64,000 bases of DNA. Origin: an uncultured Thermoplasmata archaeon. GTDB lineage: Archaea > Thermoplasmatota > Thermoplasmata > Halarchaeoplasmatales > Halarchaeoplasmataceae. A program made the position numbers and the translations under genes. This document shows positions 4,465-54,327 of this stretch, in pieces. The notes beneath the pieces are model-generated. The model worked only from the letters and a program-made list of their open reading frames with translations. It had not been told where the DNA came from and did no database searches. Every line of letters begins with the position of its first letter. The first letter of the stretch is position 1. The stretch covers positions 7,086 through 71,085 of the forward strand of contig CAYMXS010000007.1 of NCBI GenBank assembly GCA_964394465.1, written 5' to 3'.

Positions 4465-4561
4465 ATAAATCGACCAGATATTGGACCCTTTTTAGATATG
4501 GGAAATGTTCTAATACCCCCTCTAAATTCGAGAGGTTGAAGCAGTATATTGGAGGTAAAAA

Positions 4562-11589: not shown

Positions 11590-11692
11590 GGGCCAGTAGA
11601 TCAGTTGGCAGATCGCCACCTTGGCATCCGTAGGCTGAAAACGTCTACAGCTGAAATGGTGGAGGCCAGGGGTTCAAATCCCCTCTGGTCCA
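11590..11692 (+). tRNA. tRNA-Ala (anticodon GGC) carrying a 30-nt intron (11627-11656) at the canonical 37/38 position; G3:U70 is present.
   Basis: Hand fold: acceptor GGGCCAG/CTGGTCC with the G3:U70 Ala identity pair, D-stem GATC/GATC, anticodon stem CCACC/GGTGG interrupted by tccgtaggctgaaaacgtctacagctgaaa, T-arm AGGGG-TTCAAAT-CCCCT, discriminator A. Confidence 0.8.
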
Positions 11693-37997: not shown

Positions 37998-38549
37998 GTG
38001 ATAAGGGAGGAGAATGATATAATGTACGAAGCATTAGATGAATTGAGTCTCAAAGAGCTGATTGGCTATTCCATAAGGTCCGAGAAGAAGGCCAACAAGT
38101 TCTACAACCAGATAGCCGATGAACTCCCGGAACTCATGTCAAATCGGTTCAAGAGCCTGGCTGATGACGAAGAGATGCACAAAAGGCATCTACTGAAACT
38201 CCACAAGAAATTGTTCGGCGATACAGATTACGTGGTCCCGGAAAAGGAAGGACTGCCCCCTCACGAGGGAGATGTGAAGTTGGATTCAGTATCGAACCTT
38301 TTGGAATCGTTGGATAAGGCCATGGATAACGAAAGAAACGCCTACAGGATATACAAGTATCTAGCCGAGAACCATGAGGAACATCAGAACCTGTTCGAGT
38401 ATCTAGCTATCATGGAGCACGGCCATCTTGAGTCTCTGAAGAAGGAGAAGGAGATGCTAGAGGGAAGGGTGACCAGCAGACCAGATGCTAGGAACCAGGC
38501 ACCCGATAGTTTCTTCAGTTTCGAATTCGAGAAAAGACAGACCCAGTGA
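37998..38549 (+). CDS. Ferritin-like diiron-carboxylate protein (rubrerythrin-like four-helix bundle), paralog 1 of 4.
   Basis: E...E-x2-H...E...E-x2-H ligand pattern (SEK..; DDEEMH; ENERNAYRIY; MEHGHLE). Conserved C-terminal tail SFFSFEFEKRQTQ. Start may be the Met at 38022 (MYEALDEL). Confidence 0.6.
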   Translation: MIREENDIMYEALDELSLKELIGYSIRSEKKANKFYNQIADELPELMSNRFKSLADDEEMHKRHLLKLHKKLFGDTDYVVPEKEGLPPHEGDVKLDSVSNLLESLDKAMDNERNAYRIYKYLAENHEEHQNLFEYLAIMEHGHLESLKKEKEMLEGRVTSRPDARNQAPDSFFSFEFEKRQTQ

Positions 38550-38681
38550 TATAACTGGACAAGACCTTCATCAAAAACTTTTATCCCTCTTTTTAACTTT
38601 TTGCCCTGTAGATTGATTATGAAGATGATACATAAGTATTTATAATCTGACTCACATATCCATAAATTGGAGGGATGAAAT

Positions 38682-39212
38682 ATGTATGAAGCTTTAGATA
38701 GATTGAGTCTAAAGGAGATAATCGGATACTGTATAGAATCGGAAAAGAACACCGCCCAGATCTACAGGAAGATCTCTAAAGACCTTCCTGAACTGATGTC
38801 CAACAGATTCAAGAGCTTGGCCGATGATGAAGACCTGCAGAGAGAACAGTTACTAAAGATCCATAAAATATTATTTGGAGACAAGAAGTACGTGGTCCCC
38901 AAAAAGGAAGGCCTGCCCCGACTCCAGAGTGATGTTACCTCGAAATCGGTCGGTAACCTTTTGGACGCTCTAGCCAAGGCGATCGATCATGAAAACAACG
39001 TGTACAAGGTCTACAAGTATATATCGGAGAACCACGAGGAACAAAAAGACCTGTTCGAGTATCTAGCAATGATGGAGCACGGCCATCTCGAGTCGCTGAA
39101 GAAGGAGAAGGAGATGCTGGAGGGAAAGGTGTCAGGTGCTAAATCCGGGACAGAAGATCGTGATTCCGAGACACTACTCACTTTTTCCTTTGAGAAAAGA
39201 CAGACCCAATGA
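38682..39212 (+). CDS. Ferritin-like diiron protein, paralog 2.
   Basis: About 60% identical to paralog 1. GGAGG Shine-Dalgarno-like sequence. Conserved upstream box aagtatttataatct. C-terminal TFSFEKRQTQ. Confidence 0.6.
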   Translation: MYEALDRLSLKEIIGYCIESEKNTAQIYRKISKDLPELMSNRFKSLADDEDLQREQLLKIHKILFGDKKYVVPKKEGLPRLQSDVTSKSVGNLLDALAKAIDHENNVYKVYKYISENHEEQKDLFEYLAMMEHGHLESLKKEKEMLEGKVSGAKSGTEDRDSETLLTFSFEKRQTQ

Positions 39213-39321
39213 GGATCCTAAGTATACAAAGCCAAAGATACAAAGTTCAATCCACCTCAATGCTTGATAAATAAGTATTTATAATCTAAGTATCATATGA
39301 CTATTAGGGAAGAGATGAGAT

Positions 39322-39846
39322 ATGAACAGATCGTTTGAGAAATTGAGTCTCAAGGAGTTGATAGGCTATTCAATAGAGGCCGAAAAGAATACTAGAGATA
39401 TATACACTCAGATATCCAAAAGTCTTCCTGAACTGATGTCCAACAGGTTCAAGAGTCTGGCGGATGAGGAAGATATGCACAGACAGCAGTTACTCAAGAT
39501 GTATGAAAAACTGTTTGGTGATAGAGAATATATGGTTCAACTTGACGATATGCCGGCCCTTGAGAGCGAAGTCACGTCGAAGTCAATCGGTGACCTGTTG
39601 GAGGCTCTAGGTACGGCAATCGAGAACGAGAAGAATTCGTACCAGTTATATAAGCATGCGTCGAAACGCTACAAAAAGCATAGAATCTATTTCGAGTATC
39701 TAGCGGTGATGGAGCACGGTCATCTCGAGTCCTTGATGAAGGAGAAGAAATTGATAGAGGGCGAGATCGTCAGCCGTTCTAGGGCCATGGAGAGGACACC
39801 AGAATCCTTCTTCAACTTCGAGTTCGAGAAAAGACAGATACAGTGA
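39322..39846 (+). CDS. Ferritin-like diiron protein, paralog 3.
   Basis: Same architecture. Upstream box aagtatttataatct. C-terminal SFFNFEFEKRQIQ. Confidence 0.6.
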   Translation: MNRSFEKLSLKELIGYSIEAEKNTRDIYTQISKSLPELMSNRFKSLADEEDMHRQQLLKMYEKLFGDREYMVQLDDMPALESEVTSKSIGDLLEALGTAIENEKNSYQLYKHASKRYKKHRIYFEYLAVMEHGHLESLMKEKKLIEGEIVSRSRAMERTPESFFNFEFEKRQIQ

Positions 39847-39917
39847 TCAGATATATAAATAGAAAAGATAAGATGATGCAGGCCGCTCAGCCTACATCTT
39901 TTGTTTTTTTTGACCTT

Positions 39918-40718
39918 TTATTCTTCATCAGGATTTTTCAGACCTTGTTCCTCTTCTGCTGATAGCGGTTGCTGCTCTTTTGGAGGCGGTCTGTACTGCT
40001 GTTGCTGTTGATGTCTGCCTTCACTTTCTTCTTCACTCTTCAGCACCTTCAGTAGAACCACCACTATTATCACTATTATCACGATGGGCACGATTATCGC
40101 GAGAGCCAGCAGGATCATGCTCCCCGCCCATATACTCTGGAAGATCGCTTCGTCGCTGACATCGGATCCCGAACCAGACCCGGTACCGGATCCCCCACTG
40201 CTCCCTGAGCTCGTTTCAGTCCAGGAGTAAAGGTAGTCTACGGACCCCCCTCCGCTCTGTAAGTCCGAGTGCACGCAGTAGGCCCAAAAGTAGAAGTCGT
40301 CCATATTTGAGAAGACCGAATCGGGGATACTCATATCGAGTGTACCACCCGAGATCGAGAATTCCGAAATGCCGGCGTTGGTCGCCTGACCGGAATAATC
40401 AACCCAATTCGCTTCTCCGTCCGAATAGGCAATCCATACGTTCTGATTCTCCGATTTCATCTCCGTTATATATATCCAATATCCGTATTCGTTGTACTCG
40501 TCGTGGTCCTTTATCTCTCCCGAGACATCTATAGTGAAGACGATCTCATCACCGGATTTCCTCGAAGAGACCTTGGTTATATCCACGTCGGGATTGGTCA
40601 CGTCATTAGCTACATCGTTTACAGTTTTGGTAAAATCGATGGCAGATACCGTCCCAGAGATAGCTAGTAGTATTATCGCTATTACAGCTACTGAGGCTAA
40701 CAGTCTTTTCTCGTTCAA
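39918..40718 (-). CDS. Type-I membrane or surface protein: signal peptide, extracellular domain, Gly/Ser linker, C-terminal TM and Q/P-rich tail.
   Basis: MNEKRLLASVAVIAIILLAISGTVSA signal. GSSGGSGTGSGSGS linker. C-terminal TM AGSMILLALAIIVPIVIIVIIVVVLL. Confidence 0.45.
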   Translation of the reverse strand: MNEKRLLASVAVIAIILLAISGTVSAIDFTKTVNDVANDVTNPDVDITKVSSRKSGDEIVFTIDVSGEIKDHDEYNEYGYWIYITEMKSENQNVWIAYSDGEANWVDYSGQATNAGISEFSISGGTLDMSIPDSVFSNMDDFYFWAYCVHSDLQSGGGSVDYLYSWTETSSGSSGGSGTGSGSGSDVSDEAIFQSIWAGSMILLALAIIVPIVIIVIIVVVLLKVLKSEEESEGRHQQQQQYRPPPKEQQPLSAEEEQGLKNPDEE

Positions 40719-40837
40719 TATTTCACCCGGTTACCTATCAGATTTGAAGTATATAGAATTATCTATCCTTTTTGTGAAAATATCAAAGGGGTATGTTGTC
40801 ACGAAAATGTTTAATATTCTACTGAACGTGAAGAGTA

Positions 40838-41383
40838 TTGAAGAACATGTATAAGCATCTAGAGAACTTCAGTTTGAAGGAACTGATAGGGTACTCTATA
40901 GAATCTGAAGAGGCCTCGGCTAGGTTCTACAGCGATTTCGCTGAAACCTCGGTAGAGGAGATAATGAAAGAGCGTTTCAAGAGCCTTGCTAGGGATGAGA
41001 GGATACATAAAAAGGCACTCCTAGATATCCATGAAAAGGAGTTCGGGACCAGGGATTATACGATACCGGAATCTGAGGGACTTCCACCTCACGAGAGTTC
41101 CCATGATTTCGATGACGTAGTCAATCTGATAGATACCTTGGAGAAGGCCATGGAAAACGAGCGCAACGCCTTTAGGATCTATCAGTACCTGGCAAAGAGA
41201 TATGACGACCACAGGCCCATATTTCAATACCTAGCTATCATGGAGAAAGGTCACTACGAATCCATCAAGGCAGAGAGAGATATGCTGGAGGACGAGACCA
41301 TAGAGAGTACGGAACTGGATGAGAAGTCCATCTCGAACCTCTGGGCCGAACATCCCCTGTGCAGTAGAGCCGATAAAGATTAG
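40838..41383 (+). CDS. Ferritin-like diiron protein, divergent paralog 4, lacking the conserved C-terminal tail.
   Basis: Same E/H ligand pattern (ESEE; RDERIH; ENERNAFRIY; MEKGHYES). About 45% identical to paralogs 1-3. Different C-terminus and different promoter region. Confidence 0.55.
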   Translation: MKNMYKHLENFSLKELIGYSIESEEASARFYSDFAETSVEEIMKERFKSLARDERIHKKALLDIHEKEFGTRDYTIPESEGLPPHESSHDFDDVVNLIDTLEKAMENERNAFRIYQYLAKRYDDHRPIFQYLAIMEKGHYESIKAERDMLEDETIESTELDEKSISNLWAEHPLCSRADKD

Positions 41384-41384
41384 A

Positions 41385-42074
41385 CTAATCATCATCGGGA
41401 ACTAGCTCTTTAACCCGGTATACGCCCCTCCTACCGTCCCACTCCTTCTCCTCCCTCAGTACTTTGAAAGCCTCCTGATAGTTCGGTGCGTCAAGGACGA
41501 GCGTCTCGTATTCACCGCCCTCGCCGGAGGGATTTATCCCATACTCCACTTCTAGTTCCAATAGCTCATCAATGCAGTCTTGATCCATCTGCCTCCCGAG
41601 CCATCCTTGATCCAGACCCATGGCCGAGACGCTGACCATTATGGCCTTAAAACCGTTCTCGACCAGTTCATCCAGTAACTCTTTTTGATCCATGTTCCAG
41701 AGGGGGGCGTAAATCTCTAACGAAAATTCAGAGCCCAGTCTCTCAACTCTATCCATCTGATAACTGGATGCTACGGCCCCTACGATCAGGCCGTCTATTT
41801 CATCGCCGAGTTCTTCAAGGGCCTTCCTCAGATCGTTCAGTTCCTTCTCTTTCTTACCCTCTGTCTTCACTTTGATCAAATCGATATCCATGGAATCAGC
41901 CAGTTGTGGGACTAGATGGAGGTTGGGCTTGTGGAACATATAGGAATCCTCCTTCTCTGGCACCACGGTGATAAGAACATCTACGTCTATACGTTCACGC
42001 TGTGCCAGCCAAAGGGCTAGAGAAGAGTCCTTTCCTCCGGAATAAAGTGCTGCGAAGCCCATGAAATCCTCCAT
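41385..42074 (-). CDS. PP-loop ATP pyrophosphatase, diphthine--ammonia ligase (Dph6)-like, MJ0570 family.
   Basis: N-terminal SGGKDS PP-loop and alpha/beta ATP-binding domain. 229 aa. Confidence 0.6.
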   Translation of the reverse strand: MEDFMGFAALYSGGKDSSLALWLAQRERIDVDVLITVVPEKEDSYMFHKPNLHLVPQLADSMDIDLIKVKTEGKKEKELNDLRKALEELGDEIDGLIVGAVASSYQMDRVERLGSEFSLEIYAPLWNMDQKELLDELVENGFKAIMVSVSAMGLDQGWLGRQMDQDCIDELLELEVEYGINPSGEGGEYETLVLDAPNYQEAFKVLREEKEWDGRRGVYRVKELVPDDD

Positions 42075-42120: not shown

Positions 42121-43266
42121 TTAGATATACTTCGGATGTTTCTTGTTATCGACCCATTTCTCCTTCTGCTCGAAGACCTCTCTCTCCAGGTTGTCAAGTC
42201 CTTCGTCCAGAGCCTTCATTATGTTCCAGTCGAACTCCTTTGAATAGAACATGCCGTAGTCCGTTGAGAGTCTCAATCTTATGCTGTACTTGGCCTGGTT
42301 GCCTTCCTTCTGGTGTGAGACCACATGTATGTTCAGTACCAGTGGCTTCATCACCTTGTTGATCTTCCGCAGGTATTTCTGCACCAGGTCGTACATCTGG
42401 TCGTACATCTCAGCGTCCTCTTCCAAACCTGTTATCTGCACGTAGACCTGGTCTGCTTCTCTGAAGCTTGTGATCATCTCTATGAGGTCGAACTCGGTCA
42501 GTATCCCCTTTATATCGTCGTCGTCCACGGCTACCAATGTAGAGATACCGTTCTCGCTCATCTTCTTTGCAGCTTCTGGTATAGAATCCGTTGGAGACGC
42601 AGTTATGGGTGGGTTGACCATGACGCTCCTGACCTCGAGGCCGGTATATGGAGAATCACGCTCTCCGGTCCTGTCTCCTTTCTCCTCCCTCTTCACGGGC
42701 CGCGCCTCTTCTAGTATATCGCTGATGCCGACCATGCCGGTCAGTCTTTCGTGCTTGTCCACAACCGGTAAGACCCTGACGTCCAGCTTCTTCATCATGG
42801 CTTTGGCTTTACCTACGCTCTCGTGTTCCTTTATCGTGGAAGGCGAGGGTGTCATGAACTCACTGACCTTCGTGTTCTTGAGCTCGTCTATCTCGGGAAC
42901 GATCTTTGTTATGTCCTTCCTGGAGATAAAACCTGTATAGCTGCTGTTCCCAGAAGTTACCGGTATCCCCCTATAATTGGAGGACAGCAGCATCTCGCTC
43001 ACATCGACGATGGAGTCCTGTTCCCTGACGTGCGGCGGCTTGCTCATCACGTGCTCGAGCTTCGTCGAGAAAGGTAGGTTCCTTTTGTCTATGAAGGTCC
43101 CGTCGCTTATTATCCCGATAACGTCCCCCTCTTCAACGATGGGGACCTCGCTTATCTCGTGTTTCTTCATCAACCCGATGGCATCAGAAACGGTGTCCTC
43201 GGGATGGGCGGACACCGACTTATCTCTCATTATCTCCTTGGCCGTAACATCATCTATCTTAGCCAT
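42121..43266 (-). CDS. Four CBS domains fused to a C-terminal ribosome hibernation-promoting-factor/RaiA (S30AE)-like domain.
   Basis: Two CBS pairs (residues ~1-270). The C-terminal ~100 aa align along the whole bacterial HPF core: VYVQITG...VLNIHVV...RLRLSTDYGMFYSKEFDWNIMKALDEGLDNLEREVFEQKEK compared with E. coli HPF LNITG...VLKVEK...[38 protein letters not shown]. Confidence 0.55.
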   Translation of the reverse strand: MAKIDDVTAKEIMRDKSVSAHPEDTVSDAIGLMKKHEISEVPIVEEGDVIGIISDGTFIDKRNLPFSTKLEHVMSKPPHVREQDSIVDVSEMLLSSNYRGIPVTSGNSSYTGFISRKDITKIVPEIDELKNTKVSEFMTPSPSTIKEHESVGKAKAMMKKLDVRVLPVVDKHERLTGMVGISDILEEARPVKREEKGDRTGERDSPYTGLEVRSVMVNPPITASPTDSIPEAAKKMSENGISTLVAVDDDDIKGILTEFDLIEMITSFREADQVYVQITGLEEDAEMYDQMYDLVQKYLRKINKVMKPLVLNIHVVSHQKEGNQAKYSIRLRLSTDYGMFYSKEFDWNIMKALDEGLDNLEREVFEQKEKWVDNKKHPKYI

Positions 43267-43459: not shown

Positions 43460-44755
43460 ATGGATGAGAGTGCAAGATATATATACGAGCAGGCGAAGAA
43501 GCACACCGAGTGGTTCGCTGAATGCCTGCCGATGATAGCTTCAGAGAACATAATCAGCCCCCTAGCCAGGGAATTAATGTTATCAGAGTTCCAGGACAAG
43601 TACGCGGAGGGACCGCCTGGGGACAGGTACTACGAAGGCAACAAATACGTGGATAACGTAGAGGTGAAGGTACAGGAGATGGCCAAGGACCTCTTCGGCG
43701 TGGATTACGCCGACGTTCGGCCCATATCCGGGACGAACGCGAATCAAGCCGTACTGATGGCACTGGGAGGACCAGACAAGTCGATAACCTCTGTAGACGT
43801 CTCAGACGGTGCCCACATCTCCAGCGCCAAGTTCGGTTCCGTCGGTATGAGAGGCATGGAGCCCAAGACCTATCCCTTCGACGTGGACGAGATGAACATC
43901 GATCTGGAAGGTACGAAGGAACTGATCCGAGAAGAAGAGCCCGACATAGCGCTTTTCGGACGTTCGGTCTACCTCTTCCCGCCGCCGCTTGACGAGCTGC
44001 AGGACGTCTTCGAAGAGGTCGGATGCCACGTCTGGTATGACGGTGCCCACGTTCTGGGTCTGATAGCCGGGAACAATTTCCAGCAGCCCATGGATAACGG
44101 CGTAGAAGTCATGACCGGAAGTACACATAAAACTCTACCGGGTCCTCAGAGAGGGATAATCCTGGCCAACCCGAGGGACGAGAAGACCGAGGAAGGCCTC
44201 TTCTACGGCATGTTCCCAGGGGTAGTTTCGAACCATCATCTTCATTCCATGGCCGCTCTAGGTATATCTCTAGCGGAACATAGGAAGTTCGGAGAAGAAT
44301 ATACAGATCAGATAATAAAGAACGCCCAAGCCTTAGGCCAGGCCCTCTCAGAGAGAGGTATAAACGTGCTGTGCGAGCACAAGGGCTTCACGGAGTCGCA
44401 CACTCTAGCGATAGACGTCCAGGACCAGGGTGGCGGTGAGACTTTAGTGGAAGCCATGGAAGACGCAAACATGATAGCCAACAAGAACCTGATGCCCTGG
44501 GACGACGTGGACAGTGCCAACGAGCCGAGCGGCATAAGGCTGGGCAGCCAGGCTCTTACAAGATTGGGCATGAAGGAGCGGCACATGGACGAAGTGGCGG
44601 AGTTCATAAAGCGCATAATCTTAGACGATGAAGATCCTGAGAGCGTGAAGGAAGACGTCAAGGCGTTCAGGAACGATTTCCAGGAGATACACTACTGCTT
44701 CCACGAGGGTTTGCCCGCCCACGAGCACTTCACGTTCCTGGACAAGTACGAGTAG
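43460..44755 (+). CDS. glyA: Serine hydroxymethyltransferase.
   Basis: 431 aa. PLP-lysine region TGSTHKTLPGPQRG. Archaeal-type SHMT. Confidence 0.85.
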   Translation: MDESARYIYEQAKKHTEWFAECLPMIASENIISPLARELMLSEFQDKYAEGPPGDRYYEGNKYVDNVEVKVQEMAKDLFGVDYADVRPISGTNANQAVLMALGGPDKSITSVDVSDGAHISSAKFGSVGMRGMEPKTYPFDVDEMNIDLEGTKELIREEEPDIALFGRSVYLFPPPLDELQDVFEEVGCHVWYDGAHVLGLIAGNNFQQPMDNGVEVMTGSTHKTLPGPQRGIILANPRDEKTEEGLFYGMFPGVVSNHHLHSMAALGISLAEHRKFGEEYTDQIIKNAQALGQALSERGINVLCEHKGFTESHTLAIDVQDQGGGETLVEAMEDANMIANKNLMPWDDVDSANEPSGIRLGSQALTRLGMKERHMDEVAEFIKRIILDDEDPESVKEDVKAFRNDFQEIHYCFHEGLPAHEHFTFLDKYE

Positions 44756-44825: not shown

Positions 44826-47800
44826 TTAGTAGTTCAGTTTTATACTCTTCTTCTGGAAGTAGAGTCCTATTCCAATTATGGAAACGACACCTACTAGTAT
44901 CAGCAGATACATCTTAAGGGAGTTCAGCCGGGCATCTTTTTCTCCAGACGTCAAGATATCGAGCCCTTCCTCCTCTTCCGTATCCTGTTTTTCAGGCCAT
45001 CTAGAACTGACCGCTTTGTCCTGGTATACCGTGTCCTGTTCATTGGTAGAGACCTGCTCTTCAACCGTAACATCGTCTATATACCATCCTCTGTAGTCGT
45101 TGTCGTAATCGTCTACCGAGTCGAATATGAACTTGACTTGTATGGTTTGACCAGCATAACCGGAGATATCGATCGTTTCTTTCACGAAGTTGTTCTCAGA
45201 GCCAACGTTGTCGTCACTCGTATCTCTGTAGTAGACCTGGTCACCATTCACCGTTACCTTACACCAGTCGTATTCACCTTCGTGATCTTCAGTCTTGAAC
45301 CAGTGTTCGAAGCTCAAAGTAGCTCCTGAGACACCGTTAAGATCTATTGTCGGTGATGTCAATATCCCGGTCGTGTGTGAACCTGTGTCGTAGTTTCCCG
45401 TGGAATCCTGGCCGTACCACATCGCCTTGGAACCGCTGCTGCTGTCTCCGTACTGATCGCTATCTTGCGTTAGATGCCACAGGCCGCTCGTGTTCCATGG
45501 GTTACCATTTTCGAAGTCTTCGTAGAATATTGTATCACTACTGCCGCCTCCATCGACGACCTGTGGGTCCGGTTGACTCACGATCCAGTCTTCAACGGTG
45601 TCTGTATCCTCCGAAGTATCTTCTCTTCTGATGACCTCTCCTGTAGAAGCCGATAGTTCACTCCAAGCATCTTGTTCCCAGCCCACTTCATCGACCGTCT
45701 GACCGTCTGTATCGTACAGTGTGAGTGTATCCCCGCCGTTGTTCAGTGAAAGGGGCAGGTCCCAAGCATCTGGAGTTTTACCATATTCACTCTCGAAGGT
45801 GTCTTTGTCCCTGCAGACAGTAAGATGAGTGCCTCCAGGTATCGAGATAGAGTCGTCGAAGGAGTAACTCGAGGACGAATCGTCCTTTATACTCCATCCC
45901 GAAAGCTCAACTGGATCTGAACCAGGGTTGAACAGCTCGATGTATTCCCCCTCTGAATCTGTACCTTCCACGTCGTAATATACCTCGGAAAGCAGTACTG
46001 TTTCAGAGGAAGGAGCGCTTCCTTCGTCGGCTTTCACACTCACATCGTCCACGTACCACCCTCGGTAGGCGTTATCATAATCGTCAAGGGTATCGAAACA
46101 GAACTTTATATTCACCGTTTGGCCAGCGTACTCTGATATATCTATCGTCTCTTTGACAAAGTTGTTTTCCGATCCGACGTTCTCGTCCGAGGTGTCTCTG
46201 AAGTACACCTTTTCGTCGTTTATCTTCACCTTTACATGGTCATAGCTGTCTTCATGGTCCTCCGTCTTGAACCAGTGCCTGAAGGAAAGTTCAGCTTGAG
46301 AAGCCTGAGTCATATCTATGGACTCGGAGACGAGTTGGCCCTTGGTTCTAGAGCCGGTGTCGTAGTCACCTGTCGAGTCCTGCCCATACCACATCGAGTG
46401 AGATGAACTGTAACTGTCACCGTACTGGTCGGATTCATCCACTCTATGCCACAGTCCGCTTGTGCTCCAGCCTGAAGAACTCTCGAAGTCATCCTCAAAT
46501 ATAGTGGTCATTTCTTCTCCATCTTCGCTTACATCTATCGTTTTAGATACTGTATCCGTGGCTCCATCGTCGTCCTCAACGGACAAAGAAACGGTGTAGG
46601 TACCAGGGGAGCCGTAAGGATGGCTTGGATCCTGCTGACTTGAAGTCGTGCCATCACCGAAGTCCCATGAGTAGGAAGCGATATCACCATCGTCGTCCGT
46701 GGAAGAATCGCTGAACTGTACAGTTTCACCTACGGTTGGACTAGCCGGTGAGAAGCTGAAGGAGGCAGAGGGTGCCGTGTTGCTCTCTCCGTCGGAATCG
46801 GCTTTGACCGTTATATCGTCAACGTACCAGCCCCTATAGGCGTTATCGTAATCGTCCACTGAATCGAATATGAACTTCAGCTCTACCGTCTGTCCTGTAA
46901 GAGCAGAAAGGTCGATGGTTTCCTTCACGAAGCTGTTCTCCGAACCGACGTTTTCATCCTTTGTGTTCCTGTAGTATACACGATTATTGTTCACCTTTAC
47001 TATCACCTTGTCGTACTCCCCTTCATCGCAGTTCTCAGTCTTGAACCAATGCTCGAAGGAAAGTTCAGCTTGAGAAGCCTGAGTCAGATCTATGCATGGA
47101 GAAGTGAGCTGGCCAGTCGTATGCGAACCTGTATCGTAGTTCCCTGTTGAATCCTGCCCATACCACATGGAGTGAGATGAACTGTAACTGTCACCGTACT
47201 GGTCGGATTCATCCACTCTATGCCAGAGTCCGCTGGTGCTCCAGGCTGAATCCCCTTCAAAATCCTCGTCTAATAATGTGTTGAGGTCTCCTCCACTGCC
47301 GCTCACGTCTACTGTTTTAGAGATAGAGTCCGAAGCGCCTTCGTTATCCGTCACGATCAACTCAACCGTGTAGGTTCCAGAAGAGGAGTAAGTGTGATAG
47401 GGACTTTCTTCTGTAGAACTTGAACCGTCTCCGAAGTACCATGAGTAGGAAGCGATGCTTCCGTCACTGTCTGAGGAACTATCGGTGAACTGTATGGCTT
47501 CTCCCTCGGTTGGATCCGCAGGAGTAAAGCTGAAGTCCGCCGTCGGTGCTTCATTCTGCTCCTCATCTTCTCCTATCGTAACGGTGTAATCCTCTGTTTC
47601 ACCGTACTCCTGGTTCGAAGTCGGATCGGTATGATAACCATCGTATTCCTGCATCACTCTCATCCTTGTCTCTCCGTTTGAAGCGTCGCTTGGGACCGTT
47701 ATGTCCTTCGTAACCGTTAATGGCTCACTGTTACCGTTTCCGACCTCTACAACTGTATCATCGCTAAGATCAAAGTTCTGGCCCCAGTCTATGACCGCTG

Positions 47801-50800
47801 TTACATACTCTGAATAACCACCGGTGCTTAGGGTGACAGACAACTCGTAGGATTGGCCGGGTGCACATGTCTCGGACACACTTCCTGTATGATCTGCGTA
47901 TCCTCCATCGTCACCGGAGTCTTTGTTGATCCCGTTGAAGTTTACGTTCGTTATATATTCATCATAACTAGTATCTCCACCTTCAACGGTGCTGTATCCC
48001 TGAGTGTCGGATTGAACCGAGATATCCTGAGTCTTTGAGTCCGTCGCTCCGTCGTCATCGGTTACGGTCAACTCTACCGTATAGGTGCCCGAAGAGGAAT
48101 AAGTGTGAGATGGACTCGCTTCCGTTGAACTTGAACCGTCTCCGAAGTTCCATGAGTAAGAGCTTATGCTACCGTCTAAGTCCTCCGAGGTATCGGTGAA
48201 CTGTATCGTTTCTCCAGAAGTCGGCTCGGTAGGATCATAGCTGAAGTCAGCCGTGGGTACCGTGTTCTCCTCACTGCTCTGGACTGTTATGTTCTTTGTA
48301 GTAGTGTCCGTCGCCCCTTCGTTATCCGTTACGGTCAACTCTACCGTGTAAGTTCCGGATGAGGAATAACTGTGTGCTGGGTCAGCTTGCGTTGAAGTCG
48401 AACTGTCACCGAAGTTCCAGTTCCATGAAACAATATCGTTCTCAGGCGTTGAACCGTCCTGGAATTGAACCGTATCTTCAGTGGTAGGGTTTGAAGGCGT
48501 GTAATCGAAGCTCGCCGTCGGTCCCTCGTCATCTGACCCTGTAGTCGAGAATGAGAAACTGTAATCTTCTCCCATGGTGTTCCCGACCTGGTCGCTTATG
48601 CTTCCTGAAACAGTAACTTGATAATCCGTATCGGACTGTAACCTGTCGTCCTTCATCTGATAGGCGAAACATGTGTCATAGCCGTCCAGATCGTTCCATT
48701 TATCGTTCTCTGGATCATATTGTGACAGATATCCTTTGTCGTAGCTATTGTCCGTCAGGCTCAACCTGTAACGATCTTCCTCGCTACCAGCGTCTTCCAT
48801 GCTGCATCTTATCCCGTACTGGGCTCCAGCGTCCACTTGGATAGGATCTTCAAGGTTCAAGCTTATCCAAGAGGCTTCTTCTGAACCGGTACCGACATCG
48901 GAAGGTTCGATATATTTAGTCATTAAAGCCTGACCTTCTGGTGCCCCATCTATCAATTGAACCTTTAGATCCTCTGGGGGATTTCCTAACTTGAACATAT
49001 TGAGCTTTAAGGAGCTTATCTCACCGCTGGTCTGAGGCTCGAAACCCTGGACGCACACGTATCCCTTGTAACAGGAAGCGGCATAATCTCCATCCTGGTA
49101 GTTCCCGTCGGTGTACAGTGGCACATCCATCTTCGAACTGTTCTGATCCAGTAGGAGGCCATGTCCAACATCGGGAGTTATATCTATAGTAGAACCGTCA
49201 ACGGTCGAAGTGTCTATGTTCTCCGAGAAATCCACCGTTATTCTTTCTGTGTCTATGGGAACGCTCTGTTCGTTGTCGAAGGGCTCGGTAGAAGTAACTT
49301 GAGGCGATTCCGCGTCAACATGAGCTGAATCCGTCTTCAACTGTGAACTCCCGTCTCCAACGTTATCATCTTCGTAGTAAACTGTTATCGTATCGCCGTG
49401 TGATATTATCAAATCATTAACACCCGATTTCGAGATGTCTATAGACCCTGTGAACTTCCCGGGACTATCATCGCTTTCGGAGAGTTGCACCGTTTCGTTT
49501 GAACCCTCTGTATCGCTGTATATATCAACGTTCTGACTACCAGTACCGGCTACATCTGAATCGAATAATTCTATCTGGACGGTATCCTGAGCGGGATAAA
49601 CGTCTTTGTTAAGCGTTATCTCGCCGTCGGAGCCTTCATCACCGGTGAATTCGACTTCTACTGTACTAGGGATCGTGGATGGGACGTCAGGTGAATTCTC
49701 TGATTCGAAGGTCGGCGCCCCGATCTCGTAACCAGAATCGTAATACTCTACATCGAAAGAGGATATGGTGGTCTCACCGGAGCTCTGCCCCATCTCGAGG
49801 TAGAAGTTCGTTTCTCCCTGACCCTCGTTCCAATCGTCTGCGAACTTGGTCATATCTACAGCCATGAAATCTGGATAGGGATGATCTCCGCCGTCGGAAG
49901 AGTATAATGGATCTCTAGATTCGACTGGGTTATTCGATGGACCTATACCCACTTCAGTACTGGCCGTTCTACTACCCGTCTCTGAGAACCCCCACGTGCC
50001 GAGTAGCTTTGGATGTTCCTGCTCTCCCTCGTAATAGGGGTCTATTAAACGATAGGCCGATTTGTATCCCCCTACGATCTCTCCGAAGCAGTCGTATGTC
50101 ATCCAATAGGTACCGTCATCGTTAGGTCCCCAGTAGGAGCCCCAGGAGTTGGCTACCTTGAACGCGCCGGTCTCACCGTCCTGAGATATGGAATCGTTGT
50201 ATCCCACTATAGTGTTCACGTGGTTGGTCTCATTCTCCACGTACTCCTCGCTTGTCATCACGTTATCGTCTCCGAAATAGCCGAACGCATCTTCATACTC
50301 GTTGGCATCCAAAGCGAGATTGACCAGGTGTTCGTCCTGGAGCCATGTTTTGACCACGTCGACTGAAGAAGTGGATTCGAAGTCACCCGTTCTGAACTGA
50401 GGCGCGCATCTCCAGGCGTCCTCATCGCCCCATGCTGTGACGTTGCTGGCATCATATGGCATAGTTTCAAGGTTCGCACAGCCCAGATCATCTAAAACGT
50501 CTGAAAGCGAATATATGTGGGAGCCTCCGTCCTCACCGCCGTTTACCTTGTTGTAGGCCCAGGCCGGGCTCATAAGGTACTCTTCGTTCCCTGTAGAGGC
50601 GTTTAAGCCGTGTGCTTTTGCCTGCAGAAACGTGTTGGAGTAATATACTATACCCCATGCGGCACAGGAACCCTGCTGTCCCTGATTACCTATGGGTGGG
50701 AAATATTTCCTCTCTGTTAGATCCAGATCGCTATCGGAAAGTATCTGGTCTGTAGGCCCCTTCACGTCTTCGACCACTTTCATGTCGTCGGCCATATCTT

Positions 50801-51086
50801 CGTACGTCTCTTCTGATGGGGGTGCGTAACCGGTTCCGTGGCCGTTGATTATCTCGTTGTAGTCCTTTCCAGTTTCTTTAACACCGAGTTCTGCTTTCAT
50901 CCTCTTCATCTCCGAGGCGCTCAGTTCTCTGGAAACGAACGTGATCTTCTCATCCGCTCTGGTTTTCCCTTTATCATTCACACCCAGACCGTGCTCTATA
51001 TCCTTTATCGCTATCGTCAGACCAGCACTGATCAGTAGGACCGCTACGAAAAGTGCCGCCAATCTGTAGTATCTCTTATCTATCAT
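44826..51086 (-). CDS. Giant acidic cell-surface protein (2086 aa): signal peptide, papain-like C1 cysteine peptidase domain, a ~470-aa uncharacterized region, 3 PKD domains alternating with 3 copies of an unassigned ~165-aa jelly-roll-like repeat, a lamin-tail domain, and a C-terminal TM anchor.
   Basis: C1 motifs QGQQGSCAAWG (Cys), HVNTIVGY (His), NSWGSYWG (Asn). PKD signature WNFGDSS...HSYSSSGTYTVELTVTD. Repeat signature GLWHRVDESDQYGDS..MWYGQDSTGNYDTG...HWFKTE...YRGWYVDD. LTD region EVYYDVEGTDSEGEYIELFNPGSDPVELSGWSI. Starts 19 bp after the stop of the upstream 1011-aa gene, so likely co-transcribed with it. Confidence 0.6.
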   Translation of the reverse strand: MIDKRYYRLAALFVAVLLISAGLTIAIKDIEHGLGVNDKGKTRADEKITFVSRELSASEMKRMKAELGVKETGKDYNEIINGHGTGYAPPSEETYEDMADDMKVVEDVKGPTDQILSDSDLDLTERKYFPPIGNQGQQGSCAAWGIVYYSNTFLQAKAHGLNASTGNEEYLMSPAWAYNKVNGGEDGGSHIYSLSDVLDDLGCANLETMPYDASNVTAWGDEDAWRCAPQFRTGDFESTSSVDVVKTWLQDEHLVNLALDANEYEDAFGYFGDDNVMTSEEYVENETNHVNTIVGYNDSISQDGETGAFKVANSWGSYWGPNDDGTYWMTYDCFGEIVGGYKSAYRLIDPYYEGEQEHPKLLGTWGFSETGSRTASTEVGIGPSNNPVESRDPLYSSDGGDHPYPDFMAVDMTKFADDWNEGQGETNFYLEMGQSSGETTISSFDVEYYDSGYEIGAPTFESENSPDVPSTIPSTVEVEFTGDEGSDGEITLNKDVYPAQDTVQIELFDSDVAGTGSQNVDIYSDTEGSNETVQLSESDDSPGKFTGSIDISKSGVNDLIISHGDTITVYYEDDNVGDGSSQLKTDSAHVDAESPQVTSTEPFDNEQSVPIDTERITVDFSENIDTSTVDGSTIDITPDVGHGLLLDQNSSKMDVPLYTDGNYQDGDYAASCYKGYVCVQGFEPQTSGEISSLKLNMFKLGNPPEDLKVQLIDGAPEGQALMTKYIEPSDVGTGSEEASWISLNLEDPIQVDAGAQYGIRCSMEDAGSEEDRYRLSLTDNSYDKGYLSQYDPENDKWNDLDGYDTCFAYQMKDDRLQSDTDYQVTVSGSISDQVGNTMGEDYSFSFSTTGSDDEGPTASFDYTPSNPTTEDTVQFQDGSTPENDIVSWNWNFGDSSTSTQADPAHSYSSSGTYTVELTVTDNEGATDTTTKNITVQSSEENTVPTADFSYDPTEPTSGETIQFTDTSEDLDGSISSYSWNFGDGSSSTEASPSHTYSSSGTYTVELTVTDDDGATDSKTQDISVQSDTQGYSTVEGGDTSYDEYITNVNFNGINKDSGDDGGYADHTGSVSETCAPGQSYELSVTLSTGGYSEYVTAVIDWGQNFDLSDDTVVEVGNGNSEPLTVTKDITVPSDASNGETRMRVMQEYDGYHTDPTSNQEYGETEDYTVTIGEDEEQNEAPTADFSFTPADPTEGEAIQFTDSSSDSDGSIASYSWYFGDGSSSTEESPYHTYSSSGTYTVELIVTDNEGASDSISKTVDVSGSGGDLNTLLDEDFEGDSAWSTSGLWHRVDESDQYGDSYSSSHSMWYGQDSTGNYDTGSHTTGQLTSPCIDLTQASQAELSFEHWFKTENCDEGEYDKVIVKVNNNRVYYRNTKDENVGSENSFVKETIDLSALTGQTVELKFIFDSVDDYDNAYRGWYVDDITVKADSDGESNTAPSASFSFSPASPTVGETVQFSDSSTDDDGDIASYSWDFGDGTTSSQQDPSHPYGSPGTYTVSLSVEDDDGATDTVSKTIDVSEDGEEMTTIFEDDFESSSGWSTSGLWHRVDESDQYGDSYSSSHSMWYGQDSTGDYDTGSRTKGQLVSESIDMTQASQAELSFRHWFKTEDHEDSYDHVKVKINDEKVYFRDTSDENVGSENNFVKETIDISEYAGQTVNIKFCFDTLDDYDNAYRGWYVDDVSVKADEGSAPSSETVLLSEVYYDVEGTDSEGEYIELFNPGSDPVELSGWSIKDDSSSSYSFDDSISIPGGTHLTVCRDKDTFESEYGKTPDAWDLPLSLNNGGDTLTLYDTDGQTVDEVGWEQDAWSELSASTGEVIRREDTSEDTDTVEDWIVSQPDPQVVDGGGSSDTIFYEDFENGNPWNTSGLWHLTQDSDQYGDSSSGSKAMWYGQDSTGNYDTGSHTTGILTSPTIDLNGVSGATLSFEHWFKTEDHEGEYDWCKVTVNGDQVYYRDTSDDNVGSENNFVKETIDISGYAGQTIQVKFIFDSVDDYDNDYRGWYIDDVTVEEQVSTNEQDTVYQDKAVSSRWPEKQDTEEEEGLDILTSGEKDARLNSLKMYLLILVGVVSIIGIGLYFQKKSIKLNY

Positions 51087-51105
51087 CTTCGTTCTCTCCT
51101 TTTAT

Positions 51106-54100: not shown

Positions 54101-54141
54101 AACTTGACCCCTTTACTATCTTTATCTTCTTTTTTTATCAT
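51106..54141 (-). CDS. Giant surface protein (1011 aa): N-terminal TM, NlpC/P60-superfamily amidase-like (Amidase_6-like) Cys/His domain, PPC (pre-peptidase C-terminal) domain, 3 copies of the ~165-aa repeat (the first divergent), PKD domain, Asp-rich linker, C-terminal TM.
   Basis: Amidase-like SGGWDCTHFISCCV...GDVIAYDHNGDGHIQHNALYLG. PPC region DLYVSKGEEPTL...GTYIIMVHS. Repeats with GLWH..ENDQYGD..WYGQDS.G.YDTG. Confidence 0.55.
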   Translation of the reverse strand: MIKKEDKDSKGVKLVGVGVVLVLLFSAFMVSFASIGEGHEQLAGSSDKTSDDDSLMDEPASFYDRRSAYEYAYEYWDVVPSDGYFWETQTDYVELDQGTEVSGGWDCTHFISCCVGDEENQKGGGIPVPSRVPPTYGEPGAQNFVDFLLEEGYAEEVSSVDQLHVGDVIAYDHNGDGHIQHNALYLGNGEISYHSSCNFGADWELSDDETYTFLHMQDGDNGYHELNTQNEVSGELKEDDYRQYYTLELDQARDELTLDLDGSGGWFTDFDLYVSKGEEPTLSDHDKKSDGWSDTDESLTIDNPEAGTYIIMVHSDGGDGTYELNAEVIGGPTTIFEDDFEDGSLNDWSTNTNDGSHAGITSNYGSESTGSGSYSLYTCGGTASVVSPTIDINGVQDARLKTWIRRGKDSFSENPDEGEDLVVSYKDNEGNWDHLKTYAGGGTAGEIIQMNVELPSEAFHSDFKVMYRQTDGDPEWSDNWHMDDVKVTSTSSGGNDENEGPESSFEHQVNELNVEFTDVSSDPDGSITSWSWDFGDGTNSNEQDPTHDFDSEGTYTVSLTVEDNDGSSSTSTRDVSVSSGNDGGETSTIDEDFEDGSSAWSTNGLWHLVSENDQYGDSSSGTNAMWYGQDSSGDYDTGSHTTGSLSKSVDLSSAAEASLSFQHWYETENYDDGNYDKVKVTVNGEKVYYRDTTDDDVGSEDNFVEETIDISSYAGQTVEIEFTFDSIDDYNNDYRGWYVDDVKVSSGSEGDGDDDDNDDGGNDGLNSIYTQGFEGDPSGYSTTGLWHTVDENDQYGDANDGSNAIWYGQDSTGTYDTGSHTRGVLTLPTIDLLEAAQAELSFSHWFRTEDYDDEFDQVKVTVNGEQVYYRDTSDDNVGSEDDFVKETIDLSSYTGQTVTIKFIFDSIDDYDNGYRGWYVDDIEVKADAGQVTSTSEAAEDFGGASYENAPTRGEATKENEESSSLAPNMLTGVGLKTIFLLVCTSFCLVGGGVYSLRSRKKERDETKTKRR

Positions 54142-54211
54142 CTTTTTCCTCCTGATGAGATAGCTCTTTTCTTCTGTTTCCGGCTACCCCCTGCTTATAT
54201 AAAAAGAGAAT

Positions 54212-54244
54212 CCGCATATATGCAGGAATCTAGGGATTATGCGC
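54212..54244 (-). promoter_or_regulatory. Conserved palindromic element CCGCATATATGC-N12-ATTATGCG, about 70-100 bp upstream of the 1011-aa surface-protein gene; putative promoter (TATA-like ATATAT) or operator.
   Basis: Same element with identical 12-nt spacing at 59046-59077, upstream of the 1551-aa gene. The GCATATATGC core is a perfect palindrome. Confidence 0.45.
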
Positions 54245-54327
54245 ACCCGTCATCGGGACAAAATTTAGAACTCTAGACAAGTGCAAAAAAGGTGTAAAAA
54301 AGAGGGAGTTAACGGGTTTTTATCTAG

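What the first reader, a model, noticed from the sequence alone, without database searches (positions are those of the whole stretch)
42121..43266. CBS-domain x4 fused to a ribosome hibernation factor (HPF/RaiA, S30AE)-like domain
The C-terminal ~100 residues align over the full length of bacterial HPF/YfiA: the ITG N-terminus, the KYL-K helix, the hydrophobic beta strand V(L/V)xIxV, and the highly characteristic C-terminal helix ([22 protein letters not shown] in HPF versus NIMKALDEGLDNLEREVFEQKEK here). The N-terminal 270 residues are two CBS pairs, which are adenosine-nucleotide sensors. A nucleotide-sensing CBS module fused to an HPF-fold ribosome-binding module suggests an energy-charge-gated translation hibernation factor. 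HPF-family proteins are, to my knowledge, essentially bacterial or plastid, and the recently described archaeal hibernation factors are unrelated in fold, so this fusion in an archaeon is unusual.
Basis: partly seen in the sequence, partly recalled or inferred. Interest (0 to 1): 0.75.

Follow-up and report, generated by a model that had tools for sequence, protein, structure and literature searches.

The report
Archaeal ribosome hibernation factor HibA/AHA

Summary
The ORF at 42121..43266 (-) is real and encodes 381 aa. It has four CBS domains (Pfam E 7e-49) followed by a ~110-residue C-terminal domain that is a true HPF/RaiA homolog. That domain scores 24.1 bits against PF02482 (cutoff 23.7), and 16 of 19 relatives also hit the model. 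A profile of the domain finds Thermus HPF at E 2e-4. [quoted passage not shown]

The whole protein aligns end to end (E 1.7e-31, 25% identity) with Pyrococcus abyssi HibA, which has been solved on the ribosome (PDB 9SR9-9SRF). The long CBS3 loop that HibA and Haloferax AHA insert into the peptidyl-transferase centre is present.

The claim that the fusion is unusual in archaea is outdated: it occurs in about 47% of archaeal genomes.

The host is a halophilic Thermoplasmatota archaeon close to Natronoplasma. Nucleotide gating remains unproven, even for the characterised orthologs. Verdict: correct, already known, low residual interest.

The parts
42121..43266 (-). Complete hibA/AHA-type gene (381 codons plus TAA stop at 42121..42123)
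   Evidence: ORF list. Full-length phmmer match to P. abyssi HibA chain 9sr9_H, E 1.7e-31, residues 8-370 against 5-374. 240 homologs, the closest from Thermoplasmatota MAGs.
42460..43266 (-). N-terminal CBS tetrad (residues 1-269; two Bateman modules). By homology, this is the module that binds the large subunit and adenine nucleotides.
   Evidence: PF00571, 4 stretches, E 7.4e-49. AF2 pLDDT is mostly 85-94. Foldseek best matches are MJ1225, SriA-D, Dri and AMPK-gamma, E 1e-21 to 1e-15.
43087..43242 (-). CBS1 (about residues 9-60); block-3 motif GIISDGT is non-canonical (T in place of D/N)
   Evidence: AF2 secondary structure; motif scan.
42892..43059 (-). CBS2 (about residues 70-125); motif GFISRKD; G112 and R116 are invariant
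42706..42867 (-). CBS3 (about residues 134-187); motif GMVGISD, with G180 in place of the usual T/S in 38 of 39 relatives and D183 kept in 38 of 39
42640..42705 (-). Long loop at the end of CBS3 (residues 188-209, ARPVKREEKGDRTGERDSPYTG). It is the counterpart of the HibA 'PTC loop' / AHA 'loop 3', which enters the peptidyl-transferase centre.
   Evidence: It aligns without gaps to P. abyssi residues 187-206. P190, G197, G201, E202 and P206 are identical, and R193, D198 and R203 are conservative. G201 is invariant, and G197 and E202 are kept in 37 of 39 homologs. It is the only internal segment with pLDDT below 50, residues 191-204, as expected for a loop that orders only on the ribosome. Its role is taken from PMC13324472 and PMC12934967.
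42469..42639 (-). CBS4 (about residues 210-266); canonical G-h-h-T-x-x-D motif GILTEFD, with G254 and D260 invariant. In the orthologs, CBS3 and CBS4 form the adenine-nucleotide site.
   Evidence: Pfam best stretch 212-265; motif conservation; site location from PMC13324472 and PMC12934967.
42142..42459 (-). [quoted passage not shown]
   Evidence: PF02482 24.1 bits. 16 of 19 relatives hit PF02482. Profile against the PDB gives Thermus HPF at E 2e-4. AF2 topology. Top 38 Foldseek hits are all HPF/RaiA/pY.
42124..42141 (-). Short basic C-terminal tail (KHPKYI), conserved as KHPKY in close relatives. It corresponds to the HibA tail that reaches toward the mRNA exit/E-site region, but it is shorter here.
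   Evidence: Alignment A1. pLDDT below 50. Tail contacts in P. abyssi (R376-E386 with h23, h24, uS7, uS11, eS28) come from Supplementary Data 1. The tail could not be aligned to the P. abyssi tail.

Best explanation
The gene encodes an ortholog of the archaeal ribosome hibernation factor known as HibA (Thermococcales) or AHA (Haloferax). The mechanism is inferred by homology to the solved complexes. The C-terminal HPF-like domain docks on the 30S subunit in the mRNA/tRNA channel, over the A and P sites, as bacterial HPF/RaiA does. The N-terminal four-CBS disc sits on the 50S side and pushes the long CBS3 loop into the peptidyl-transferase centre. One polypeptide therefore bridges both subunits, excludes mRNA and tRNAs, keeps idle 70S ribosomes together and protects them from degradation until growth resumes. 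Adenine nucleotides (AMP preferred over ADP and ATP in HibA) bind at the CBS3/CBS4 interface and probably tune engagement or release. This last step is a hypothesis even for the characterised proteins. What is shown here: the domain architecture, the fold, full-length homology and the presence of the loop and the CBS4 motif. What is inferred: ribosome binding, nucleotide binding and the physiological role in this organism.
For: The ORF is intact and its N-terminus matches homologs. It has four CBS domains plus an S30AE-type domain. It aligns over its full length with P. abyssi HibA chain 9sr9_H at E 1.7e-31 and with a second solved CBS-HPF chain, 9l96_a, at E 4.5e-19. The identity of 9sr9_H as HibA is confirmed by its 392-aa length, the PDB codes given in the paper, and the residue names and numbers in Supplementary Data 1 matching the aligned sequence. 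The AF2 model is confident (pLDDT 84, pTM 0.78) and shows an HPF topology. The isolated domain model matches only HPF/RaiA/pY structures in its top 38 hits. The CBS tetrad matches ribosome-binding CBS factors (SriA-D, Dri) and AMPK-gamma. The PTC-loop length and its Gly/Glu/Pro scaffold are conserved. The CBS4 ribose-binding Asp is invariant. The C-terminal domain recurs in 324 cluster representatives at 50% identity, and 106 of the best 150 are 340-430 aa with the domain at the C-terminal end, so the fusion is the common form. Experimental function of the orthologs is reported in PMC13324472 and PMC12934967.
Against: Identity to the structurally characterised HibA is only 25%. Ribosome-contact residues are barely more conserved than the domain background: 27 of 42 (64%) score BLOSUM-positive against 54% overall. 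Several key contacts differ. Tyr195, which stacks on the PTC adenine, is Lys196 here. Phe325 and Arg326, which touch decoding base A1461 and uS12, align to Glu321 and Gly322. The C-terminal tail is shorter. CBS3 has Gly where canonical nucleotide motifs have Thr or Ser. The single-sequence Pfam and TIGRFAM scores are at or below the curated cutoffs. Nothing was measured for this protein, and AHA paralogs within one genome are reported, so a diverged role cannot be excluded from a 64-kb window.
Confidence: 0.88

Rival explanations
1. It is a HibA/AHA-type hibernation factor, but the CBS tetrad is mainly a structural module that binds the large subunit, and adenine nucleotides do not gate binding. 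Regulation would come from elsewhere, for example sequestering partners, lysine acetylation, or competition with tRNA and mRNA.
For: Madru et al. found that 5 mM AMP or ATP left the conformations and occupancy of HibA on 70S largely unchanged, and native complexes carried no nucleotide. The CBS3 block-3 motif is non-canonical here (G180). H. volcanii AHA is acetylated at K311/K313 and co-purifies with an inactive Pat2 acetyltransferase (PMC12607858). A PF00850 deacetylase gene lies immediately 3' of the hibA homolog in 5 of 12 related loci.
Against: HibA's CBS module binds AMP with a Kd of 12 uM and discriminates against guanine nucleotides. AHA carries two AMP on the ribosome at sites equivalent to the AMPK-gamma regulatory sites. 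The related ARC/Sri factors are reported to be released by ATP. The CBS4 motif and both ribose-binding Asp residues are conserved here. The deacetylase gene is absent from this window.
Confidence: 0.3
2. It is a diverged paralog whose HPF-like domain no longer serves ribosome hibernation. It could be a CBS-type metabolic or transcriptional regulator like HhpR, or a factor that acts on other partners; HibA was pulled down with DNA replication and recombination proteins.
For: Identity to HibA is low (25%), and several rRNA-contacting residues are replaced. Paralogs are reported in some genomes. Pull-down interactions with replication proteins are mentioned in PMC13324472.
Against: The architecture, length, loop and tail are conserved across 240 homologs, and the HPF-domain core is under strong constraint: V276, I278, G280 and W347 are invariant, and Q277, R332 and T335 are nearly so. 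R332, T335, D336, G338 and R362 are identical to rRNA-contacting residues of HibA. No second copy lies in the window. HhpR-type (CM-3) proteins lack the HPF domain.
Confidence: 0.05
3. The resemblance of the C-terminal domain to HPF is convergent or due to chance, a generic alpha/beta sandwich, rather than homology.
For: The single-sequence HMM scores sit at the threshold.
Against: The family profile finds almost only HPF/RaiA in the PDB. 16 of 19 relatives hit PF02482, down to E 5.9e-9. The 38 best structural matches are exclusively HPF-family proteins, and the first unrelated fold appears at E 8.5e-3. The orthologous domain occupies the same 30S site as bacterial HPF in two independent cryo-EM studies.
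Confidence: 0.01

Closest known systems
HibA (Pyrococcus abyssi PAB0961, PDB 9SR9-9SRF/9T7H; Thermococcus barophilus TERMP_00697), Madru et al., bioRxiv Oct 2025 / Nat Commun 2026 (PMC13324472)
   Same: [quoted passage not shown] Full-length alignment gives E 1.7e-31. The loop scaffold P..[KR]...G[DE]..GE[KR]..P, the CBS4 GhhTxxD motif, and R332, T335, D336, G338 and R362 of the 30S-binding surface are all conserved.
   Different: Identity is only 25%. Tyr195 is Lys196 here, and Phe325/Arg326 align to Glu321/Gly322. The tail is shorter (KHPKYI). CBS3 has Gly in place of Thr. The protein is acidic (pI 5.2) and comes from a halophilic Thermoplasmatota archaeon rather than a hyperthermophile. Nothing has been measured for it.
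[quoted passage not shown]
   Same: It has the same 4xCBS-HPF architecture and loop 3 in CBS3, and it too is an acidic protein from a halophile. It would be counted among the 3,160 AHA homologs found in that survey's 17 phyla.
   Different: The two bound AMP and the stationary-phase phenotypes are shown only for Haloferax.
Bacterial and plastid HPF / RaiA (YfiA, pY) / PSRP1, Pfam PF02482, TIGR00741
   Same: The fold is the same and there is detectable sequence homology. The orthologous archaeal domain binds the same 30S site.
   Different: Those proteins are stand-alone (about 95-115 aa), or carry a C-terminal dimerisation domain in long HPF. Here the domain is C-terminal to a CBS tetrad, has longer beta2/beta3 strands and a longer last helix, and scores below the TIGR00741 cutoff. 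No evidence bears on 100S dimer formation.
Dri (Pyrobaculum calidifontis Pcal_1808, PDB 9E6Q/9E7F) and SriA-D / ARC-A/P (Methanosarcina, Methanolobus; PDB 9ZNF-9ZNI)
   Same: These are ribosome-binding CBS tetrads with structural similarity of E 1e-20 to 1e-16. Dri also inserts a loop into the PTC.
   Different: They have no HPF domain. Dri has two tetrads, and Sri/ARC are stand-alone tetrads that act in pairs. They largely exclude HibA/AHA phyletically.
Eukaryotic AMPK gamma subunit
   Same: The four-CBS disc is shared, with nucleotide sites 3 and 4 equivalent (Foldseek E about 1e-17; PMC12934967).
   Different: AMPK-gamma is a regulatory subunit of a kinase heterotrimer, not a ribosome factor, and it has no HPF domain.

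Membership tests
HibA / AHA (archaeal CBS-HPF hibernation factors) | N-terminal tetrad of four CBS domains (two Bateman modules) | tested here: met
   PF00571 in 4 stretches, E 7.4e-49. The AF2 model has four beta-alpha CBS units. Foldseek matches CBS tetrads.
HibA / AHA (archaeal CBS-HPF hibernation factors) | [quoted passage not shown] | tested here: met
   sequence; fold; 106 of the 150 best relatives of the domain are 340-430 aa with the domain at the C-terminus.
HibA / AHA (archaeal CBS-HPF hibernation factors) | Significant full-length similarity to a member solved on the ribosome | tested here: met
   9sr9_H (P. abyssi HibA), E 1.7e-31, residues 8-370 against 5-374; 9l96_a, E 4.5e-19.
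HibA / AHA (archaeal CBS-HPF hibernation factors) | Extended loop in CBS3 (PTC loop / loop 3) | tested here: met
   The loop spans residues 188-209, has the same length as in P. abyssi, and keeps a conserved Gly/Glu/Pro scaffold. It has low pLDDT in the free model. Insertion into the PTC itself was not testable.
HibA / AHA (archaeal CBS-HPF hibernation factors) | Adenine-nucleotide site at the CBS3/CBS4 interface | tested here: inconclusive
   CBS4 has the canonical GILTEFD motif with D260 invariant. CBS3 has GMVGISD, with Gly180 instead of Thr/Ser and D183 kept. The motif definition comes from the HibA supplement. Binding was not measured.
HibA / AHA (archaeal CBS-HPF hibernation factors) | Two archaeal-specific insertions in the HPF domain relative to bacterial HPF/RaiA | tested here: inconclusive
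   The domain aligns to P. abyssi HibA with gaps of only 1-2 residues. It spans 85 residues against 78 Pfam model positions, and beta2 and beta3 are long at 14 and 12 residues. The exact insertion positions are shown only in figures that are not held.
HibA / AHA (archaeal CBS-HPF hibernation factors) | Binds 70S ribosomes, inhibits translation, and preserves ribosomes in stationary phase | not testable with these tools
   Shown for P. abyssi / T. barophilus HibA and H. volcanii AHA only (PMC13324472, PMC12934967).
Bacterial HPF/RaiA (PF02482; TIGR00741 equivalog) | Score at or above the curated family cutoffs | tested here: inconclusive
   PF02482: 24.1 bits against 23.7 for the isolated domain, but 20.7 bits in the full-length protein. 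TIGR00741: 26.1 bits against 40.9, not met.
Bacterial HPF/RaiA (PF02482; TIGR00741 equivalog) | Stand-alone short protein, or long HPF with a C-terminal dimerisation domain | tested here: not met
   The domain is C-terminal to a 269-aa CBS tetrad, and no other Pfam domain is found. The protein shares the domain superfamily, but it is not a member of the bacterial HPF/RaiA protein family.
Dri (dual ribosomal subunit inhibitor) | Two consecutive CBS tetrads and no HPF domain | tested here: not met
   The protein has one tetrad plus an HPF domain.
SriA-D / ARC-A/P | Stand-alone CBS tetrad proteins, usually in gene clusters and acting in pairs | tested here: not met
   An HPF domain is present, and there is no other CBS-protein gene in the window (tblastn).

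The most novel reading that the evidence does not exclude
In this halophilic Thermoplasmatota lineage (order PWKY01, Natronoplasma-like) HibA may work as a variant. It has Lys in place of the Tyr that stacks on the PTC adenine, lacks the Phe-Arg pair that contacts the decoding centre, and has a shortened tail. Its control may depend on something other than adenylates. One candidate is lysine acetylation: a PF00850 deacetylase gene abuts hibA in 5 of 12 related loci, and Haloferax AHA is acetylated in its HPF domain. Another is coupling to aEF2 diphthamide status through the diphthine-ammonia ligase gene, which lies 46 nt downstream on the same strand here and keeps that downstream position in most close relatives.
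Probability: 0.08. Interest if true: 0.45.

Novelty: already known. Interest (0 to 1): 0.2.

Why it matters
The finding shows that reading sequence alone can recover a real and biologically important architecture, the archaeal counterpart of bacterial HPF fused to an AMPK-gamma-like sensor. That architecture had gone unrecognised until cryo-EM work in 2025-2026. For this window the practical value is annotation. A gene that databases label only 'CBS domain-containing protein' can be named as a HibA/AHA-type ribosome hibernation factor in an uncultured halophilic Thermoplasmatota archaeon. It opens no new question beyond those the published papers already pose: whether adenylates really gate binding, and how release occurs.

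Tried and rejected
1. A full-length Foldseek search against the PDB returned only CBS-tetrad proteins. That library stops at 8 April 2026 and appears not to include the HibA entries, so the C-terminal domain had to be modelled and searched separately.

2. Using ribosome-contact residues from HibA Supplementary Data 1 as a membership test gave only marginal enrichment: 64% similar against a 54% background. It is reported but not used as support.

3. The search for related loci with the 39-sequence alignment failed because no stretch was conserved enough. The single-protein scan found only six close Thermoplasmatota relatives plus three loci matching only part of the CBS region.

4. A literature search for PDB code 9L96 found nothing relevant, so the source of that second solved CBS-HPF chain is unknown.

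5. The cluster look-up gave no names or accessions for the exact protein.

6. Reading the paper's Source Data for per-lineage HibA presence returned only gradient traces. I could confirm only that the Natronoplasma genome GCA_003554965 is in their genome set and that it encodes a 69%-identical homolog.

7. The idea that the downstream Dph6 gene is functionally linked was rejected as unsupported. The adjacency is part of general collinearity (SHMT-hibA-Dph6-rubrerythrin-TldD) within one order, and it is lost in homologs at 42% and 39% identity.

8. Several A/T-rich TATA-like motifs lie 44-88 nt upstream of the ATG. No promoter is claimed.
Full report
**Observation.**
Its start (MAKIDD...) coincides with the N-termini of its closest homologs, so the gene model is sound.

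- **CBS domains.** Pfam finds four CBS stretches (PF00571, E 7.4e-49).
- **PF02482.** It also finds a match to Ribosomal_S30AE over residues 286-370, covering model positions 9-86 of 88. That match scores 20.7 bits in the whole protein (below the 23.7 gathering score) and 24.1 bits (E 6e-5) when the last 111 residues are scanned alone.
- **TIGR00741.** NCBIfam's yfiA/HPF equivalog gives 26.1 bits, below its 40.9 cutoff.

On one sequence, the HPF signal is therefore real but borderline.

**Is the C-terminal domain truly HPF-like?**
Three independent tests say yes.

1. **Relatives against Pfam.** Of 19 homologous C-terminal domains cut from an alignment of relatives, 16 hit PF02482 on their own, the best at E 5.9e-9.
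2. **Profile against the PDB.** A profile of those 19 domains was searched against all PDB chain sequences. It returned 23 chains at E <= 10. Of these, 21 are bacterial HPF/RaiA/protein Y or archaeal CBS-HPF fusions; the other two are a coiled-coil protein. The best are Thermus thermophilus HPF (6gzx_V3, 2ywq_A) at E 2e-4, aligned over nearly the whole domain.
3. **Structure.** AlphaFold2 on a 39-sequence alignment gives a confident model (mean pLDDT 84.4, pTM 0.78). [quoted passage not shown] The domain modelled alone (pLDDT 84.0) has the same topology. Its 38 best Foldseek matches in the PDB are all HPF, RaiA/YfiA, pY/PSRP1, MPY or RafH, with E down to 2.9e-7 and TM-scores of 0.7-0.8. The first unrelated protein appears at E 8.5e-3.

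**What it is.**
The whole protein, not just its parts, has a solved relative. phmmer against the PDB gives chain 9sr9_H (392 aa, eight entries 9SR9-9SRF and 9T7H) at E 1.7e-31, with residues 8-370 aligned to 5-374. A second CBS-HPF chain, 9l96_a (406 aa), scores E 4.5e-19.

9SR9-9SRF are the Pyrococcus abyssi HibA-ribosome structures of Madru et al. (preprint October 2025; Nat Commun, April 2026; PMC13324472). That paper describes a 392-residue protein with a CBS module (1-269) and an HPF/RaiA-like C-terminal part (270-392), and cites PDB 9SRE as its reference model. The residue names and numbers in its Supplementary Data 1 match the aligned 9sr9_H sequence.

The same architecture was found independently on Haloferax volcanii ribosomes and named AHA (HVO_2384; Souza et al., PMC12934967). 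[quoted passage not shown]

The window protein has every architectural hallmark of this family:
- the CBS tetrad;
- the HPF-like domain;
- a basic C-terminal tail;
- the long loop at the end of CBS3.

In this protein the loop spans residues 188-209. It aligns without gaps to the P. abyssi 'PTC loop'. P190, G197, G201, E202 and P206 are identical, and R193, D198 and R203 are conservative. G201 is invariant, and G197 and E202 are kept in 37 of 39 homologs. It is the only internal low-confidence stretch of the model, as expected for a loop that becomes ordered only inside the ribosome.

**How it most likely works (by homology, not shown here).**
In both cryo-EM studies the HPF-like domain sits in the 30S mRNA/tRNA channel at the same place as bacterial HPF/RaiA. 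It contacts h18, h23, h24, h28, h31 and h44 and proteins uS7, uS9, uS11, uS12 and uS19.

The CBS disc lies on the 50S side. It can insert the CBS3 loop into the peptidyl-transferase centre around the universally conserved adenine (E. coli A2602). HibA also samples uL5 and L1-stalk positions.

The factor thereby excludes mRNA and all tRNAs and bridges the subunits. It also preserves 70S ribosomes. [quoted passage not shown] Deletion in H. volcanii also delays recovery, lowers viability and depletes ribosomal proteins in stationary phase.

The HibA CBS module binds AMP (Kd 12 uM) better than ADP or ATP, and does not bind GMP or GTP. AHA carries two AMP at the CBS3/CBS4 junction.

In the window protein the CBS4 motif GILTEFD is canonical, with D260 invariant. 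CBS3 has GMVGISD, with D183 conserved but Gly180 where Thr or Ser is usual. Nucleotide binding is therefore plausible but not established.

Whether nucleotides gate ribosome binding is open even for the characterised proteins. Madru et al. saw no clear effect of AMP or ATP. Souza et al. only hypothesise that AMP stabilises the loop.

**How this member differs.**
- **Low identity.** Identity to P. abyssi HibA is 25.3% over 360 aligned positions.
- **Contact residues.** Of the 42 alignable residues of the C-terminal domain that contact the ribosome in HibA, 9 are identical and 27 score positively in BLOSUM62 (64%). The domain as a whole gives 54%, so there is no strong extra conservation.
- **Conserved contacts.** Y275, Q277, K320, R332, T335, D336, G338, R362 and E369 are identical.
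- **Changed contacts.** The Tyr that stacks on the PTC adenine is Lys196 here. The Phe-Arg pair touching decoding base A1461 and uS12 aligns to Glu321-Gly322. The tail is shorter (KHPKYI) and could not be aligned.
- **Charge.** The protein is acidic (pI 5.2), in line with a halophilic host.

These are lineage-level variations within the family, not a new design.

**Host and context.**
The closest homologs (57-71% identity) come from Thermoplasmatota/Thermoplasmata MAGs from hypersaline or soda-lake samples, including Candidatus Natronoplasma and Saliniplasma. One of them, GCA_003554965 (GTDB order PWKY01, genus Natronoplasma), is in the genome set surveyed by Madru et al..

The window looks like an ordinary archaeal chromosome segment. 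It carries AlaRS, PheRS-beta, Tpt1, TrmO, ScpB, FolD, GcvT, SHMT and a diphthamide-synthesis gene. It also holds a tRNA gene that Rfam detects as a 103-nt match but ARAGORN misses, consistent with an intron.

No second CBS-HPF gene or stand-alone CBS tetrad lies in the window.

The gene is divergent from SHMT (43460..44755, +). It is followed 46 nt downstream, on the same strand, by a diphthine-ammonia ligase gene (PF01902; 41385..42074). This SHMT-hibA-Dph6-rubrerythrin-TldD order is kept in close relatives and lost in homologs at 42% and 39% identity. I therefore read it as collinearity, not as a functional operon.

**How common the fusion is.**
A phmmer search of 1.84 billion cluster representatives with the 112-residue C-terminal domain alone found 324 proteins at E <= 1e-3 and 84 at E <= 1e-10. 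Of the best 150:
- 106 are 340-430 aa with the domain at the C-terminal end;
- 20 are shorter than 150 aa, either stand-alone HPF-like proteins or fragments;
- the rest are of intermediate length.

This agrees with the published surveys. HibA is reported in 47% of archaeal genomes, with stand-alone HPF/RaiA-like proteins in 8%. AHA is reported in 2,723 of 6,968 species across 17 phyla.

**Verdict.**
- **Observation:** confirmed.
- **Interpretation:** supported in substance.
- **Premise of rarity:** the premise that made the finding look unusual, that HPF-type factors are absent from archaea, has been overturned by work published in 2025-2026.
- **Energy gating:** still unproven.
- **Novelty:** already known.
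- **Residual interest:** low (0.2). It is mostly annotation value, plus a side lead on a deacetylase gene that recurs next to hibA in relatives.

Noticed in passing
L004:5153-6157(-), L006:5160-6167(-), L010:4158-5147(-), L011:4168-5169(-), L012:4158-5147(-); absent between 42074 and 42121 in the window: A histone-deacetylase-family gene (PF00850) lies convergent to, and within a few bases of, the 3' end of the hibA homolog in 5 of 12 related loci. One of them is a 39%-identity homolog in an otherwise unrelated neighbourhood. Haloferax AHA (HVO_2384) is reported to be acetylated at K311/K313 and to co-purify with an inactive Pat2 acetyltransferase (PMC12607858). This hints at acetylation control of the factor. 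The window itself lacks the deacetylase gene.
   Followed up: partly
window 41385..42074 (-): A diphthine-ammonia ligase / diphthamide synthase gene (PF01902, E 6e-72) starts 46 nt downstream of hibA on the same strand. The order SHMT-hibA-Dph6-rubrerythrin-TldD/PmbA is kept in close Thermoplasmatota relatives but lost in more distant ones. It is probably collinearity rather than a link between hibernation and aEF2 modification.
   Followed up: partly
L006:1-3825 (+), upstream of the hibA homolog at 4001-5152: In a homolog at 39% identity the gene sits directly after the proteasome-alpha / SBDS / Rrp4 / Rrp41 / Rrp42 / L37ae superoperon, on the same strand. aSBDS is the second factor seen with HibA on idle P. 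abyssi ribosomes (PMC13324472).
   Followed up: no
PDB chains 9l96_a (406 aa) and 9i5v_14 (401 aa): Two further solved chains have an HPF-like match at their C-terminal end: 9l96_a residues 301-388 and 9i5v_14 residues 315-400. 9l96_a is named 'CBS domain-containing protein', and 9i5v_14 is named 'Ribosome-associated translation inhibitor RaiA'. 9l96_a also aligns with the window protein's CBS region, so it is a CBS-HPF fusion; for 9i5v_14 only the HPF-like match was seen. No paper in the library cites 9L96, so more structures of this family exist than the two papers I read.
   Followed up: partly
window 37998..41383 (+): Four rubrerythrin-like paralogs (PF02915; 174-183 aa, 39-56% identical to one another) lie in a row. 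They are interrupted by one minus-strand gene for a 266-aa protein with a hydrophobic stretch near each end and no Pfam match (39918..40718).
   Followed up: no
window 11590..11692 (+): Rfam detects a tRNA gene here (56.7 bits, 103 nt) that ARAGORN does not report. This is consistent with an intron-containing archaeal tRNA.
   Followed up: no
window 44826..58983 (-): Three very large ORFs lie in tandem (2086, 1011 and 1551 aa). By eye, the translation of the first shows an N-terminal hydrophobic stretch, a papain-like QGSCAAWG motif, several PKD-like repeats (FGDGSSST...GTYTVELTVTD), a thrice-repeated 'SGLWHRVDESDQYGDS...RGWYVDD' module and a C-terminal hydrophobic stretch. It is probably a surface protease or adhesin. 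It was not scanned with Pfam.
   Followed up: no
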